Source of the DNA: Escherichia coli
GTDB lineage: Bacteria; Pseudomonadota; Gammaproteobacteria; Enterobacterales; Enterobacteriaceae
Assembly: GCF_003790525.1 (NCBI RefSeq)
Contig: NZ_CP033635.1
DNA length: 64,000 nucleotides
Direction: 5' to 3' (one strand)
The notes under the pieces were generated by a model, which ran no database searches, was not told the DNA's origin, and saw only the letters and a list, made by a program, of their open reading frames with translations. Position 1 is the first letter of the stretch, and each line of letters begins with the position of its first letter. Positions 5,748-53,330 of this stretch are shown piece after piece. The position numbers and the translations under genes are program-made.

Positions 5748-6019
5748 TATCAATCCTTTTTCAACAAATTATTCGATGCGTTCCCACGGAATAAGATTAT
5801 CCATAAGAACAGCCAGTAAAATTCCGACCAGTAAGCCGTTACTGAGCAGAGGACGAAGCGTTAATGGAAGGTCTTGCAGATACACAGGCGGTAATGCCAT
5901 TAAAAATATGCCGACAAATAACGGCAATGCGAGTCGATAAATATTGCGAGCGGTAAACGTTATTTGCTGGCTAAACACCAGCGCGGAAAAGAGTAAAGGC
6001 AGATGGTAATGACTCCAAC

Positions 6020-6523
6020 TTACTGATAGTGTTTTATGTTCAGATAATGCCCGATGACCTTGTCATGCAGCTCCACCGATTTTGAGAACGACAGTGACTT
6101 CCGTCCCAGCCTTGCCAGATGTTGTCTCAGATTCAGGTTATGCCGCTCAATTCGCTGAGTGTAACGCTTGCTGATTACGTGCAGCTTTCCCTTCAGGCGG
6201 GATTCATACAGCGGCCAGCCATCCGTCATCCATACCACGACCTCAAAGGCCGACAGCAGGCTTAGAAGACGCTCCAGTGTGGCCAGAGTGCGTTCACCGA
6301 ATACGTGCGCAACAACCGTCTTCCGGAGCCTGTCATACGCGTAAAACAGCCAGCGCTGGCGCGATTTAGCCCCGACGTATCCCCACTGTTCGTCCATTTC
6401 CGCGCAGACGATGACGTCACTGCCCGGCTGTATGCGCGAGGTTACCGACTGCGGCCTGAGTTTTTTAAATGGCGGAAAATCGTGTTGAGGCCAACGCCCA
6501 TAATGCGGGCGGTTGCCCGGCAT
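6020..6523 (-). CDS. insB: IS1 InsB (C-terminal part of InsAB' transposase)
   Basis: ORF track, 167 aa, recognised InsB. Confidence 0.95.
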
Positions 6524-6717
6524 CCAACGCCATTCATGGCCATATCAATGATTTTCTGGTGCGTACCGGGTTGAGAAGCGGTGTAAGTGAACTGCAGTTG
6601 CCATGTTTTACGGCAGTGAGAGCAGAGATAGCGCTGATGTCCGGCGGTGCTTTTGCCGTTACGCACCACCCCGTCAGTAGCTGAACAGGAGGGACAGCTG
6701 ATAGAAACAGAAGCCAC
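6442..6717 (-). CDS. insA: IS1 InsA (transposition repressor / N-terminal part of InsAB' transposase)
   Basis: ORF track, 91 aa, [23 protein letters not shown]... recognised; A6C slippery motif lies at plus-strand 6460-6466. Confidence 0.95.
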
Positions 6718-7902
6718 TGGAGCACCTCAAAAACACCATCATACACTAAATCAGTAAGTTGGCAGCATCACCAAGGCAGATAAGAAACCAACATGACCGC
6801 GCTACTCACCGGTAAAGGGATACTGCAAAACAGTCGTGTGAGTGCCGGAACCAGTGCCACCAGCAGGCAAATAACGCTGCCATAAATAAACGATCGTCGC
6901 GTGTAATCGCCAGTCTGGGTTAATAAACCAATGGATGAAACAAACGGTGAAAATGGAATTACCGCCAGCGGCACGGTTATCAGCGTCATAAATCCGGTCG
7001 CCACAAAGCTGCGACGATAACGCGTATTCCCCGCGCCCTGTTGCGGATAAAAAACATCCGTGCCACGAATCGCACCGTAGGTATTGCTGATATTTACCAG
7101 ACCTGTAATCACCGCCGTCAGAATAATCCCCGGCGACAAAGCACCGCCACTGCCGAGCGGGAACCACTGCCAGTGCAACTCACCGGAGAGCGAATGCGAA
7201 GAAGGAAAGCAAAAGTACCACAACAACCAGCCGGTTATCGTACCGACCAGCAGGCCATAACGGGCAAAACGTTGCGGCAGGAAGATAATCATCGCCAGTA
7301 CCAGGCACATCACCGCCACCGAGAGCGCGAACGGCGGTAACTGAATTTTAAAATTCGGGTCGGCTATGCCAAACGGCAGCCCGAGCATACCTTTGAAAAA
7401 GATAGTGGTCAGCTGCGCGCCCAGCATCAACATAAACAAGACCATCACCGACGGCGTAAATAACCGCGCCAGACGATGACCTAATCCGCTAAAACCAATC
7501 AACATCGTCAGCACGCCAGAGAGCGCAATTCCCACCGCCAGGCTGGTAGCGATATCGTTGATCGGTGTCCCGCGCGATGCTTCGCCAAGGGTGATAGTCA
7601 GGATGGTTCCCCACCACAGGCCACCCGGCCCTTCCATAATAGCGCGACGATGACCGCAGAACGCCTGAGCGAAGCAGGCCAGTGCGGTAGCAAGAAAAGC
7701 ATATTGCGTGAGCGTAAGCAGGCTACTTTGCGGCAACTGAAAAGCAGAAAGTAGCGTAGGAGGAACCACAACCGTGTTGCAAAAAATAAAGAAAAACCAC
7801 TGAAATCCTGATAACAGGCTTTCGCGGCCCACTGCAAAATTGAACATAAACACACCTTAACCGGAGAATGCCCGCCACAAGGACGGGCATTGCAGGGCCA
7901 GA

Positions 7903-17171: not shown

Positions 17172-18281
<1,110 letters not shown>

Positions 18282-18309
18282 TAGGCGGTATTCTGTGCAC
18301 GCTGTTCAT

Positions 18310-18396
18310 GCCGGATGCGGCGTGAACGCCTTATCCGGCCTACGGTTAAGTGCAGTTTTGTAGGCCTGATAAGACGCGCCAGCGTCGCATCAGGCA
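18310..18396. repeat. REP/BIME: pair of inverted REP palindromes
   Basis: GCCGGATGCGGCGTGAACGCCTTATCCGGCCTAC and TAGGCCTGATAAGACGCGCCAGCGTCGCATCAGGC motifs. Confidence 0.85.
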
Positions 18397-18411
18397 ATCT
18401 AACGCCTGTCA

Positions 18412-20826
18412 TCATCCCGCAAACTGCCTGAACAGCGCCTTACCCTTAACCAGTCGCGCACCCAGCCAGCCGCCGCAAAGCGACAGCAGCAGCGCACCGC
18501 TGCACGGCAGCACAATCCACAATCGCCAGTCTGGCTCCCACGGGAAATCAAACACTTTCGCCTGCAACACTGCCAGCGCCGTTTCCGCACCAATTGCGGC
18601 CACCAGGCCAGAAACAAACCCAAGCATGGCGAACTCACACCACAATGTCGTGCGCAGCAGCTTTTTCCCCGCACCGAGTGTGCGCCACACCACCAGCTCC
18701 TGATGACGCTGACGCATTCCCACCTGCACCTGTGCCAGCAACAGCAACATACCGCAGGCGGTGACCAGCACCACCATCACCTCCAGCGCCCGACTTACCT
18801 GCTCCAGCACCTGACCGACCTGTTTTAAAATCGCGCCAATGTCTAACAGGCTAATGGTCGGGAACTGGCGGTTGAGTTGCGTCAACATGCCGTTGCCATT
18901 CTCCCAGCGGAAACTGGTAAGCCAGCTCTGCGGTTGCCCGTCTAATGCCCCTTCAGGGAAAATAAAATAGAAATTAGGCCGCAGACTTTCCCAGTCCACT
19001 TTGCGCAGGCTGGTCACTTTAGCGCGGAACTCCTGGGTATCGCCCATAAAAGTCACGGTATCACCGAGGGCAACGTTTAAGCGTTTCGCCAGCCCCTCTT
19101 CCATCGACACTTCATCGGCTTTTGGCGGCCAGTTACCGGCGACAATCGGATTATGATCGGGCCGCGTATTTTGCCAGGTAAGATTGAGTTCGCGATTGAG
19201 CGCCTCATCTTCATTGCCTTCTGTCGGCTTGCCGTTAATCGCCGTCAGTCTCGCCCGCACCACCGGATAAAACGATTCCGGGACTATCTGATGTTCCGCG
19301 AGGAACGCTTTTAGCGGTGCTACCTGTTCTGTGGCGATGTTAATTAAAAAGTAGTTCGGGCTTTCTGGAGGTAGCTGCTGCTGCCAGCGGTCGAGCAGAT
19401 CGCCACGCAACACCAGCAGCAGTGCCAGCAGCATAAAGGAGAGCGAAAATGCCGAAAGCTGGCTTAACGTTGACCACGGCTGACGTAACAGGCGGCTAAC
19501 CGCCAGGCGCAGAGGCAGCGATTTCAGCGTCATGCGGCGAAGTACATTCAGCAGCATCCAGCCCAGCACACCGCACAGCAAAGCCAGTACTACCGCGCCC
19601 GCCAGCACCGCCCAAAGCAGCATGCTGCCACCCATTAATCCGGCGAGCAGCAGCACAACCACTACACTGACAATCGGCAGATAAAACTTCAGCGGCCAGA
19701 CGTTCGCTACCACATCATTACGTAATACGCGTAAAGGCTGCGTTGCCAGCAACAAGCGGTATGGTCGTAGCCCCACCAGCAGCGAGATAACCGTCATGGT
19801 GCCGAGCGCCCACAGCCACGGCCAGAGGCTGGCTGGCGGTAGTGCGGCAGGCAGAACGGGCTTGAGCAGCACCATCAACACGTTTTCGAACAACAGGCCT
19901 ATCGCCCCACCGGTAACGGCTGAAAGCGTCAGCACCATCAACCACTGACCGACGATTAGCTTACGCAGTTGCGCTCGCCCTGCCCCCAGCGTTTTGAGGA
20001 TCGCCACCAGATCGTAGCGACTGCGACAGTAATGATTCATCGCCACCGCCACCGCTGCCACTGCCAGCAGCAAGGTCAGAAGCGCAGAAAGCAGCAGGAA
20101 CTGTTGCGAGCGTTCCATCGAGCGCCCCAGCGCGCCTTCGTCCTGTTCCAGACCGTACCAGCGTTGTTCGGGTTTAAGCTGGGGTAACAACCATTTCTCA
20201 TAGCCGTCGAGCTGGTTCTCGTTGCCGCCGAATTTATAGCGCCAGGTGACCCGACTTCCCGGCTGCACGGCTCCGGTTTTATCGACATCCGCCAGATTCA
20301 TCATCAGACGCGGAGCCATCTGGAAGGGGTTAAAACCGGAATCCGGTTCCTGAATCACTTCTCCGGCAATCCGCAAGGTGGCATCGCCCACGTCAATGGT
20401 GTCGCCCGTTTTCAGGTTAAGCAGTGCCATCAGGCGTGGGGCCAGCAATACGCTGCCCGCCTGCGGTTTCAGGCCTGGGGGATTGGTTTGCAGATCGCCA
20501 TACATCGGGTAGATATCATCCACCGCTTTGACGTTCGCCAGCTGCGGTGTGTCGCCTGCAAATGTCATGGTGGCGAAAGTCAGCTGCTTGCCGACTTTCA
20601 GGCCGCGCTTTTGCGCTTCCTCCAGCCACGCTTGCGGCACTTCGCGCGAACTGCGCAACGCCCGATCGCCCGCCATAAACTCCCGGCTTTGCTGGCTTAA
20701 GCCCTTCTCCATGCGATCGCTGATATTGCCCAGCGCCAGCACGCAGGCCACCGCCAGGCTTAGCGCCAGCCAGACAATTAATAGCGACGGCGAGCGCCAT
20801 TCGCGCCAGAACCAACGTGCAATCAT
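18412..20826 (-). CDS. ybbP: ABC transporter permease (FtsX-like, two domains)
   Basis: ORF track, 804 aa; recognised YbbP; 4-nt overlap with ybbA. Confidence 0.88.
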   Translation of the reverse strand: MIARWFWREWRSPSLLIVWLALSLAVACVLALGNISDRMEKGLSQQSREFMAGDRALRSSREVPQAWLEEAQKRGLKVGKQLTFATMTFAGDTPQLANVKAVDDIYPMYGDLQTNPPGLKPQAGSVLLAPRLMALLNLKTGDTIDVGDATLRIAGEVIQEPDSGFNPFQMAPRLMMNLADVDKTGAVQPGSRVTWRYKFGGNENQLDGYEKWLLPQLKPEQRWYGLEQDEGALGRSMERSQQFLLLSALLTLLLAVAAVAVAMNHYCRSRYDLVAILKTLGAGRAQLRKLIVGQWLMVLTLSAVTGGAIGLLFENVLMVLLKPVLPAALPPASLWPWLWALGTMTVISLLVGLRPYRLLLATQPLRVLRNDVVANVWPLKFYLPIVSVVVVLLLAGLMGGSMLLWAVLAGAVVLALLCGVLGWMLLNVLRRMTLKSLPLRLAVSRLLRQPWSTLSQLSAFSLSFMLLALLLVLRGDLLDRWQQQLPPESPNYFLINIATEQVAPLKAFLAEHQIVPESFYPVVRARLTAINGKPTEGNEDEALNRELNLTWQNTRPDHNPIVAGNWPPKADEVSMEEGLAKRLNVALGDTVTFMGDTQEFRAKVTSLRKVDWESLRPNFYFIFPEGALDGQPQSWLTSFRWENGNGMLTQLNRQFPTISLLDIGAILKQVGQVLEQVSRALEVMVVLVTACGMLLLLAQVQVGMRQRHQELVVWRTLGAGKKLLRTTLWCEFAMLGFVSGLVAAIGAETALAVLQAKVFDFPWEPDWRLWIVLPCSGALLLSLCGGWLGARLVKGKALFRQFAG

Positions 20827-23846: not shown

Positions 23847-23996
23847 GTAGGCCTGATAAGACGCGCCAGCGTCGCATCAGGCATCCGCGCATAGCCGCCG
23901 GATGCGGCGTGAACGCCTTATCCGGCCTACCAAACCGTGCTAATTCAATACATTGCAGGTGCCATGTAGGTCTGATAAGACGCATCAGGCATCGCA
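23847..23996. repeat. REP/BIME cluster (three REP units)
   Basis: Repeated GCCTGATAAGACGCG...CGCATCAGGC and GCCGGATGCGGCGTGAACGCCTTATCCGGCCTAC motifs. Confidence 0.85.
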
Positions 23997-26503: not shown

Positions 26504-26958
26504 TGGAGTTAATGGTCGTTCATCCACATATTTTCTGGCTCAGTCTCGGCGGGTTGCTGCTGGCAGCCGAGATGCTGGGCGGAAATGGTTATTTGTTGTG
26601 GAGCGGCGTGGCAGCGGTGATTACCGGCCTGGTGGTCTGGCTGGTGCCGCTGGGTTGGGAGTGGCAAGGGGTGATGTTTGCCATCCTGACGCTGCTCGCC
26701 GCCTGGCTGTGGTGGAAATGGTTGTCGCGGCGGGTGCGCGAACAAAAGCACAGCGACAGTCATTTAAACCAGCGCGGGCAGCAGCTGATTGGCCGACGTT
26801 TTGTGCTGGAATCTCCGCTGGTCAACGGGCGCGGTCATATGCGCGTCGGCGACAGTTCATGGCCTGTCAGCGCCAGCGAGGATCTCGGTGCAGGTACGCA
26901 TGTTGAAGTCATTGCGATAGAAGGGATAACGCTGATCATCCGTGCGGTCATCGCCTGA
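26500..26958 (+). CDS. ybbJ: NfeD-like membrane protein, partner of QmcA
   Basis: ORF track, 152 aa; 4-nt overlap with qmcA. Confidence 0.85.
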
Positions 26959-27045
26959 TGCGACGCTGACGCGTCTTATCATGCCTACAAAATATGCCCG
27001 AATCGTAGGCCAGATAAGGCGCTTGCGCCGCATCCGGCATATAGC
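26954..27045. repeat. REP/BIME element at the left edge of the accessory insert
   Basis: GCCTGATGCGACGCTGACGCGTCTTATCATGCCTAC ... GTAGGCCAGATAAGGCGC...CGCATCCGGC motifs. Confidence 0.8.
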
Positions 27046-35039: not shown

Positions 35040-35200
35040 GGTGGCGCATCTGGCATCGACGCATGCCTGCCGGATGCGGCATAAACGCCTTATCCGGCCT
35101 ACGATTCAGGCACAGGGTTGTAGGCCTGATAAGACGCGTAAGCGTCGCATCAGGCAATGGTGCTCGGATGCCGGATGCCGGATGCGGCGATGTTTTGGCA
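35040..35200. repeat. REP/BIME cluster filling the copA-ybaP intergenic region
   Basis: Multiple GCCGGATGCGGC...GCCTTATCCGGCCTAC and TAGGCCTGATAAGACGCG...CGCATCAGGC units. Confidence 0.85.
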
Positions 35201-41864: not shown

Positions 41865-41949
41865 GTAGGCCTGATAAGACGCGCCAGCGTCGCATCAGGC
41901 ATTGAGAGCAAAATGCCAGATGCGGCGTGAACGCCTTATCTGGCCTACG
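41865..41949. repeat. REP/BIME pair
   Basis: TAGGCCTGATAAGACGCGCCAGCGTCGCATCAGGC and GCCAGATGCGGCGTGAACGCCTTATCTGGCCTAC. Confidence 0.85.
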
Positions 41950-53229: not shown

Positions 53230-53330
53230 CTGCCTGATGCGCTACGCTTATCAGGCCTACACCGCTCCTGCAATATATTGAATTCTTGCGGTTTCGTAGG
53301 CCGGATAAGGCGGTCACGCCGCATCCGGCA
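53230..53330. repeat. REP/BIME pair
   Basis: GCCTGATGCGCTACGCTTATCAGGCCTAC and GTAGGCCGGATAAGGCGGTCACGCCGCATCCGGC. Confidence 0.85.

What the first reader, a model, noticed from the sequence alone, without database searches (positions are those of the whole stretch)
18282..18411. No RhsD element between ybbP and selU: apparent empty site holding only a REP pair
In K-12 as I recall it, the several-kb RhsD element and its downstream orphan fragments lie between ybbP and ybbB/selU. Here the two genes are 130 bp apart and the spacer holds only two inverted REP palindromes. This marks the strain as non-K-12 and gives a candidate pre-insertion sequence for that Rhs locus.
Basis: partly seen in the sequence, partly recalled or inferred. 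Interest (0 to 1): 0.4.

Follow-up and report, generated by a model that had tools for sequence, protein, structure and literature searches.

The report
Rhs-free selU–ybbP spacer with REP pair
In this E. coli SMS-3-5 window the genes selU and ybbP are separated only by a 130-bp pair of common repeat (REP) hairpins where K-12 has a 7.3-kb RhsD toxin island; this is a known, ordinary strain difference, and the 130 bp is a shortened repeat cluster rather than the sequence the island inserted into.

Summary
selU/mnmH (17187-18281, +) and ybbP (18412-20826, -) converge on a 130-bp spacer. It holds one Y-type and one inverted Z2-type REP, 16 nt apart. The window is 100% identical to E. coli SMS-3-5. 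K-12 MG1655 has 7,301 bp there: rhsD, ybbC, ylbH, ybbD, ylbI, ylbG.

The spacer is one of at least nine alleles among 5,426 complete E. coli genomes:
- K-12-type Rhs island: about 2,870-2,906 genomes.
- 569-bp DinQ-like type I toxin module: 1,315.
- Hcp-Tle1-like/DUF2931 type VI island: 572.
- Several REP-only forms: about 546.

The 130-bp form is rare (33 seen, at most 83). It equals a 240-bp four-REP cluster (Y-Z2-Y-L-Z1) minus 112 bp. That cluster occurs in other E. coli and in E. albertii. The breakpoints lie in an 11-nt repeat shared by the Z2 and Z1 REPs.

The K-12 island replaces nearly the whole spacer. It keeps about 15 nt after the selU stop and 6 nt after the ybbP stop, and has no target duplication or terminal repeats. 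No exact insertion point can be read from this window.

Presence/absence of Rhs at this position and BIME copy-number variation between strains are both published. Low interest.

The parts
17187..18281 (+). selU/mnmH (tRNA 2-selenouridine synthase), 364 aa, stop TAA at 18279-18281
   Evidence: ORF list. NCBIfam MnmH equivalog, 757 bits. RefSeq annotation of SMS-3-5.
18282..18295 (.). 14-nt selU-proximal flank (TAGGCGGTATTCTG). A recognisable form of it is kept in the REP-only, DinQ-like and K-12 Rhs alleles. The DinQ-like module of other strains is inserted exactly after 18295. K-12 homology fades at about 18297.
18310..18343 (+). Y-type REP (iREP orientation on the + strand, ends in CTAC).
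   Evidence: Palindrome I3. The exact sequence recurs at 23897 and there are 5 matches in the window against 0 expected. It forms a hairpin in the + strand RNA fold.
18344..18359 (.). 16-nt short linker (GGTTAAGTGCAGTTTT) between the CTAC and GTAG ends of the two REPs.
   Evidence: Sequence. The same linker position is present in the four-REP alleles.
18360..18395 (-). Z2-type REP, inverted relative to the Y REP.
   Evidence: Palindrome I5. There are 5 matches in the window against 0 expected, three of them exact. It forms a hairpin in the fold.
18385..18396 (.). Deletion junction. The CGCATCAGGCA head is shared by Z2 and Z1, and the 112 bp (Y-L-Z1) present in the 240-bp alleles are missing after it.
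   Evidence: Alignment A1. Spacer sequences.
18397..18411 (.). 15-nt ybbP-proximal flank (ATCTAACGCCTGTCA). In the other REP alleles it follows the Z1 REP. Only its last 6 nt are recognisable in K-12.
18412..20826 (-). ybbP (putative ABC transporter permease), 804 aa, stop TGA at 18412-18414.
   Evidence: ORF list. NCBIfam YbbP equivalog, 1461 bits. Annotation.

Best explanation
The 130 bp are the shared 3' intergenic region of the convergent core genes selU and ybbP. They hold a single BIME-2-like unit: a Y REP, a 16-nt linker and an inverted Z2 REP.

This is one allele of a highly polymorphic intergenic site. The oldest form that can be traced in Escherichia is a four-REP cluster (Y-S-Z2-Y-L-Z1, about 240 bp, with an IHF-consensus site in the L linker). 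The SMS-3-5 form arose from it by a 112-bp deletion between the 11-nt CGCATCAGGCA heads of Z2 and Z1. The cause was either replication slippage or short-homology recombination, or REP-associated transposase (TnpA_REP) strand exchange at its TGCC|TGAT sites.

The K-12 RhsD island, the Hcp-Tle1-like/DUF2931 island and the DinQ-like module are alternative occupants of the same spacer in other lineages. They probably move between strains by homologous recombination in the flanking core genes.

Functionally, the REP hairpins most likely act as 3'-end stabilisers or transcription barriers for both converging mRNAs.

Shown: the anatomy, the allele series, the deletion breakpoints and the allele frequencies. 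Inferred: the direction of change, the deletion mechanism and the RNA function.
For: - Anatomy.
- Strain identity.
- K-12 island.
- The four-REP allele is found in E. coli (L087-L090, 240 bp), in E. albertii (L010, 242 bp) and behind the DinQ-like module (L091, 812 bp).
- Alignment A1 shows a single 112-bp gap bounded by the shared heads.
- The complementary product also exists: 140 bp, Y-L-Z1 (L094).
- Frequencies: 2,870 and 2,906 genomes for the two Rhs junctions; 1,315 DinQ-like; 572 Hcp island; 1,861 short alleles in all; 33 seen and at most 83 of the window's type.
- The convergent selU/ybbP pair is conserved in Citrobacter, Kluyvera, Kosakonia, Buttiauxella and Superficieibacter, with spacers of 47 bp to 5.4 kb.
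- RNA folds: -62.5 kcal/mol (z = -3.9) and -61.5 kcal/mol (z = -4.9).
- Literature: BIME numbers at a locus vary between strains, and TnpA_REP cleaves and recombines at iREP sites TGCC|TGAT (PMC3333891).
Against: - The direction of change (240 to 130 bp) rests on parsimony from a few sequenced alleles and one outgroup species. No genome tree was built.
- E. whittamii carries the Hcp island, so large islands at this site are also old.
- No U-tract terminator was found in the spacer and no expression data were examined, so the RNA role is inferred from general REP biology.
- The Y/Z1/Z2 labels rest on my recollection of the published consensus sequences. The figures that hold them are not available to the tools.
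Confidence: 0.8

Rival explanations
1. The 130-bp spacer is the literal ancestral (pre-insertion) sequence into which the RhsD element inserted.
For: - The site is Rhs-free and lies exactly where K-12 carries RhsD.
- Jackson et al. 2009 infer that the Rhs at this position arose within E. coli, after the split from the B2-like strains.
- The outgroup E. albertii has REPs and no Rhs here.
Against: - K-12 lacks all of about 18298-18405, so nothing marks an insertion point inside the spacer. There is no target duplication or terminal repeat.
- The 130-bp form is a 112-bp deletion derivative of the four-REP allele shared with E. albertii.
- It is rare, at most 83 of 5,426 genomes.
Confidence: 0.07
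2. The SMS-3-5 lineage once carried an island (Rhs or Hcp) and lost it. The spacer is then a deletion scar, not a never-occupied site.
For: - Deletion scars do occur at this site. Strain EC13 has a 58-bp spacer that joins the REP-allele left flank to the right end of the Hcp island (L092).
- The 233-bp allele carries a single copy of the hairpin repeat that flanks the DinQ-like module (L006).
Against: - The window's spacer contains no island-derived sequence.
- Every base aligns with the four-REP allele.
- The Rhs and Hcp alleles contain no REPs from which this pair could be regenerated.
Confidence: 0.05
3. The two-REP form is ancestral, and the four-REP form arose by BIME amplification or insertion of a BIME-1 unit.
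For: REP/BIME numbers can grow as well as shrink, and TnpA_REP can assemble multiple REPs in vitro (PMC3333891).
Against: - The extra unit is Y-L-Z1, not a tandem copy of Y-S-Z2.
- The four-REP form occurs in E. albertii, in several E. coli backgrounds and behind the DinQ-like module.
- The 140-bp Y-L-Z1 allele is the reciprocal reduction product.
Confidence: 0.08

Closest known systems
Rhs 'position 3' (RhsD locus, ybbA/ybbP to ybbB/selU) presence/absence polymorphism, Jackson et al. 2009 (PMC2935791), following C. W. Hill's Rhs work
   Same: The flanking genes are the same. The absence of Rhs in some E. coli lineages was already mapped across 20 strains, and the locus was inferred to have arisen within E. 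coli.
   Different: In the parts I read, the paper scores presence or absence and does not describe what fills the unoccupied site. Here the site is resolved into at least nine alleles. ATCC 8739, which Jackson et al. cite under gene loss among K12, HS and ATCC8739, carries the DinQ-like module in all 569 bases at 99.5% identity. I did not check that this copy lies between selU and ybbP in that strain.
BIME-2 / atypical BIME clusters of REP sequences (Gilson, Bachellier, Hofnung; Ton-Hoang et al. 2012, PMC3333891)
   Same: Y and Z2 REPs in inverse orientation across a short linker, in an extragenic position between convergent genes. The number of units at one locus varies between strains, as that paper states.
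   Different: There is only one unit here, whereas BIME-2 usually occur as tandem copies. The parental allele is a BIME-2/BIME-1 chimera ('atypical BIME'). Protein binding (gyrase, IHF, Pol I) was not tested.
Integration hot spots for polymorphic-toxin cargo (Rhs, Hcp-ET effectors, type I toxins)
   Same: Other strains hold toxin modules at this same spacer: RhsD, an Hcp with a Tle1-like phospholipase domain plus DUF2931 genes, or a DinQ-family peptide.
   Different: The window itself holds none of them. No integrase, att site or target duplication was found.

Membership tests
REP / BIME-2 element | A Y-type REP: an imperfect palindrome of about 35 nt with a CTAC/GTAG end, belonging to a multi-copy family | tested here: met
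   18310-18343. Palindrome I3. There are 5 copies in the window with up to 3 mismatches against 0 expected. The type label rests on my recollection of the consensus.
REP / BIME-2 element | A Z2-type REP (about 36-40 nt) in inverse orientation to the Y REP, across a short linker | tested here: met
   18360-18395 on the minus strand, with a 16-nt linker. There are 5 copies in the window against 0 expected.
REP / BIME-2 element | Extragenic location | tested here: met
   It lies wholly between the stop codons of selU and ybbP.
REP / BIME-2 element | Occurs as multiple tandem Y/Z2 units (PMC3333891) | tested here: not met
   Only one Y-Z2 unit is present. Related alleles carry Y-Z2 followed by a BIME-1 unit (Y-L-Z1), which is the 'atypical BIME' form.
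REP / BIME-2 element | Bound or cleaved by DNA gyrase; acts on mRNA 3' ends | not testable with these tools
   Only predicted RNA hairpins are available. No U-tract terminator was found.
Unoccupied RhsD site (Rhs position 3) | ybbP and selU/ybbB are adjacent with no Rhs core or tip sequence between them, while K-12 holds rhsD there | tested here: met
   130-bp spacer. K-12 map. BLAST of the two loci.
True pre-insertion (target) sequence of the RhsD island | The island in K-12 is flanked by the two halves of the empty-site sequence | tested here: not met
   K-12 keeps only about 15 nt on the selU side and 6 nt on the ybbP side. The roughly 108 nt between them, including both REPs, are absent.
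True pre-insertion (target) sequence of the RhsD island | Target-site duplication or terminal repeats at the island ends | tested here: not met
   No direct or inverted repeat of 8 nt or more was found between the two island ends.
True pre-insertion (target) sequence of the RhsD island | The empty allele is the ancestral state | tested here: not met
   The 130-bp allele equals the 240-bp allele shared with E. albertii minus 112 bp. This rests on parsimony, not on a full phylogeny.

The most novel reading that the evidence does not exclude
The selU-ybbP spacer may be a directed hot spot, not just a tolerant gap. Three unrelated toxin cargoes have landed in it: the RhsD island, an Hcp-Tle1-like/DUF2931 island and a DinQ-like type I toxin module. 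Two of them break within about 2 nt of each other: the DinQ-like module after window 18295 and the K-12 Rhs island at about 18297, both just upstream of the Y REP. REP-directed cleavage or recombination (TnpA_REP/RAYT, or REP-targeting insertion sequences) might therefore create the entry point and also drive the repeated REP deletions seen here.
Probability: 0.1. Interest if true: 0.45.

Novelty: already known. Interest (0 to 1): 0.12.

Why it matters
It matters little beyond strain typing. The Rhs presence/absence polymorphism at this position and BIME copy-number variation between strains are both published. The useful result is a correction: an "empty" site in one strain should not be read as the target sequence of an island in another. 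Here the site has at least nine alleles, the empty form in hand is itself a deletion derivative, and the islands replace the spacer from stop codon to stop codon. The allele table may help anyone who uses this locus as a marker or studies the turnover of toxin cargo.

Tried and rejected
1. I looked for target-site duplications or terminal inverted repeats at the ends of the K-12 island. None of 8 nt or more was found.
2. I looked for Rhs-bearing genomes that keep REPs next to ybbP or selU. In the sampled rows all alignments stop at the same points, query 586 and query 707-711. The two K-12 junctions are each shared by about 2,900 genomes. This suggests one old island allele, so no intermediate was found.
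3. A 25-kb query meant to size the inserts across genomes was confounded by an IS1 and by other variable segments. It was used only to find the Hcp-island allele.
4. The Rfam search gave only sub-threshold naRNA4 hits. The promoter/terminator scan found nothing in the spacer.
5. A 26-nt, 77% inverted match between 18300-18325 and the ybbP 3' coding end (I1) was considered. It was set aside as probably chance.
6. A literature search for this Hcp island at ybbP found nothing. The review I read (PMC6730261) does not mention ybbP, and the only UPEC Hcp-ET it lists, Hcp-ET3-4 (UTI89_C0121), has pyocin S3 and colicin DNase domains, unlike the Tle1-like domain found here.

Full report
**Observation**

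The window holds selU/mnmH at 17187..18281 (+) and ybbP at 18412..20826 (-). NCBIfam equivalog models confirm both.

It contains two REPs: a 34-nt one at 18310-18343 and a 36-nt one at 18360-18395 on the opposite strand. Their CTAC and GTAG ends face each other across 16 nt. With up to 3 mismatches, each pattern has five matches in the 64-kb window against none in 100 shuffles. Rfam gives only sub-threshold hits to the REP-derived naRNA4 family. From the published consensus as I recall it, these are a Y REP and a Z2 REP, which together form a single BIME-2-like unit. PMC3333891 defines these classes.

**Origin of the window, and K-12**

The window is 100% identical to E. coli SMS-3-5, NC_010498.1. 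In K-12 MG1655 the same two genes are separated by 7,301 bp carrying rhsD, ybbC, ylbH, ybbD, ylbI and ylbG.

**Junctions**

BLAST and direct reading show where K-12 homology stops and restarts.
- It fades about 15 nt after the selU stop. K-12 reads TGAGGGACGTATTTGT where the window reads TAGGCGGTATTCTGT.
- It resumes 6 nt beyond the ybbP stop, at window 18406.
- Neither REP is present in K-12.
- The ends of the island share no direct or inverted repeat of 8 nt or more.

The island is a replacement of the spacer, not a clean insertion into it.

**Allele series**

Among 5,426 complete E. coli genomes:

| Allele | Genomes |
|---|---|
| K-12 Rhs island, ybbP-side junction | 2,870 |
| K-12 Rhs island, selU-side junction (ylbG) | 2,906 |
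| 569-bp DinQ-family type I toxin module | 1,315 |
| Hcp/Tle1-like (667 aa) + DUF2931 island | 572 |
| selU and ybbP within about 1.2 kb (includes the DinQ-like type) | 1,861 |
| REP-only or other short forms (estimated by subtraction) | about 546 |

- The DinQ-like module encodes a peptide that scores 40.9 bits on NCBIfam toxin_DinQ. In strain 600 (L003) it lies exactly between window positions 18295 and 18296 and is flanked by direct copies of a hairpin, AAAAAAACCGACATGACAGTCGGTTT.
- The Hcp island carries two to four DUF2931 genes. It occurs in B2-type strains such as SE15 and in E. whittamii. It even replaces the last codons of selU.

Short alleles seen directly:

| Spacer length | Content | Locus |
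|---|---|---|
| 130 bp | Y-S-Z2 | window, L086 |
| 140 bp | Y-L-Z1 | L094 |
| 240 bp | Y-S-Z2-Y-L-Z1 | L087-L090 |
| 233 bp | 100-bp remnant with one hairpin copy, then Y-L-Z1 | L006 |
| 712 bp | DinQ-like module, then Y-L-Z1 | L003, L007 |
| 812 bp | DinQ-like module, then all four REPs | L091 |
| 604 bp | DinQ-like module with an internal deletion | L093 |
| 58 bp | REP-less hybrid: REP-allele left flank joined to the right end of the Hcp island | L092 |

**The window's allele is derived and rare**

E. albertii has a 242-bp spacer with the same Y-S-Z2-Y-L-Z1 order as the 240-bp E. coli alleles. Alignment A1 shows that the SMS-3-5 spacer is this cluster minus one block of 112 bp. The breakpoints fall inside CGCATCAGGCA, a sequence shared by the Z2 and Z1 heads.

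The reverse complement of that sequence, TGCC|TGATGCG, contains the iREP-I cleavage motif at which TnpA_REP cuts and exchanges strands in vitro (PMC3333891). Slippage or short-homology recombination is an equally simple cause. The deletion removed the L linker, which carries an IHF-consensus match (AATCAATATATTG).

Only 83 genomes have a Z2 REP next to ybbP. In the best-60 list, 24 genomes are identical to the window over 290 bp and 9 more have the same length at 97.6% identity.

**Outgroups**

The convergent selU/ybbP pair is conserved across Enterobacteriaceae, but the spacer varies:
- 47-56 bp with a single hairpin in several Buttiauxella.
- About 1.4 kb with a porin-like gene in Kluyvera, Pseudenterobacter and some Citrobacter.
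- About 4.1-5.4 kb with MetNIQ-like transporter genes, plus the porin-like gene in most of them, in other Citrobacter, Kosakonia and Superficieibacter.

The interval tolerates many contents, and none of them identifies the 130-bp form as ancestral.

**Function (inferred)**

Both strands fold well below shuffled controls: -62.5 kcal/mol (z = -3.9) and -61.5 kcal/mol (z = -4.9). No U-tract terminator or promoter-like site lies in the spacer. The Y stem starts 28 nt after the selU stop, and the Z2 stem ends 16 nt before the ybbP stop. From general REP biology, the most likely role is 3'-end protection or a transcription barrier for the two converging mRNAs. This was not tested.

**Comparison with the literature**

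Jackson et al. 2009 (PMC2935791) list this place as Rhs "position 3" (ybbA to ybbB). They map presence and absence across 20 strains with E. albertii as outgroup, and infer that it arose after the split from the B2-like strains. Ton-Hoang et al. 2012 state that the number of BIMEs at a given locus varies between E. coli strains. Both halves of the finding are therefore known.

**Verdict**

Novelty: already known. Interest is low. The only lead with some novelty is that three different toxin cargoes use this one spacer, with two left breakpoints within about 2 nt of each other. I rate a directed mechanism at about 10%.

Noticed in passing
L003:2097-2665 (strain 600); also L007, L091, L093. The insertion point corresponds to window 18295|18296.: A 569-bp module encodes a 27-aa DinQ-family type I toxin (MKTFLDKVLIVLKALIALLELIRQFIE; NCBIfam toxin_DinQ, 40.9 bits). 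It sits between selU and the REPs in 1,315 of 5,426 E. coli genomes and in Escherichia sp. E1V33. It is flanked by direct copies of a hairpin, AAAAAAACCGACATGACAGTCGGTTT. A 233-bp allele (L006) keeps one hairpin copy and no toxin.
   Followed up: partly
L004:11667-16563 (E. coli SE15); L005; L009:1089-4651 (E. whittamii): An island between selU and ybbP encodes a 666-667-aa Hcp fused to a Tle1-like phospholipase domain, followed by 2-4 DUF2931 genes. Its ybbP-side junction is found in 572 of 5,426 E. coli genomes. It replaces the last codons of selU and brings its own hairpin 3 nt from the ybbP stop.
   Followed up: partly
L092:583-640 (E. coli EC13): A 58-bp REP-less spacer joins the REP-allele left flank (up to TGTTCATGC) to the right-end hairpin of the Hcp island. 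This implies an unseen parental allele that carried both a selU-side REP and the Hcp island.
   Followed up: no
window 6005-6772: A 768-bp stretch matches IS1 copies on many E. coli plasmids at 92-100% identity (query positions 156-923 of the 25-kb query).
   Followed up: no
window 23847-23930, 35069-35155, 41865-41948; single REPs at 26953-26988 and 53296-53329: Further Y/Z2 REP pairs (BIME-like) and single REPs lie elsewhere in the window. The pair at 23847-23930 matches both patterns exactly.
   Followed up: no
L011, L013, L018, L025, L031 (Citrobacter, Kosakonia, Superficieibacter); L016, L020, L021, L047: In other Enterobacteriaceae the selU-ybbP interval holds a porin-like gene of about 377-383 aa. 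In many it also holds a MetN/MetI/MetQ-like ABC transporter trio. These are ordinary genes, not toxin cargo.
   Followed up: partly
L041 (contig labelled uncultured Alistipes sp. MAG) and L081 (Trinickia soli, 394-bp contig): These contigs encode SelU fragments 98-100% identical to E. coli. They are probably E. coli contamination in those assemblies.
   Followed up: no
window 18300-18325 and 18412-18437: A 26-nt, 77% inverted match links the left flank and first half of the Y REP to the last codons of ybbP (CGCTGTTCA / TGAACAGCG core). It may be chance.
   Followed up: no
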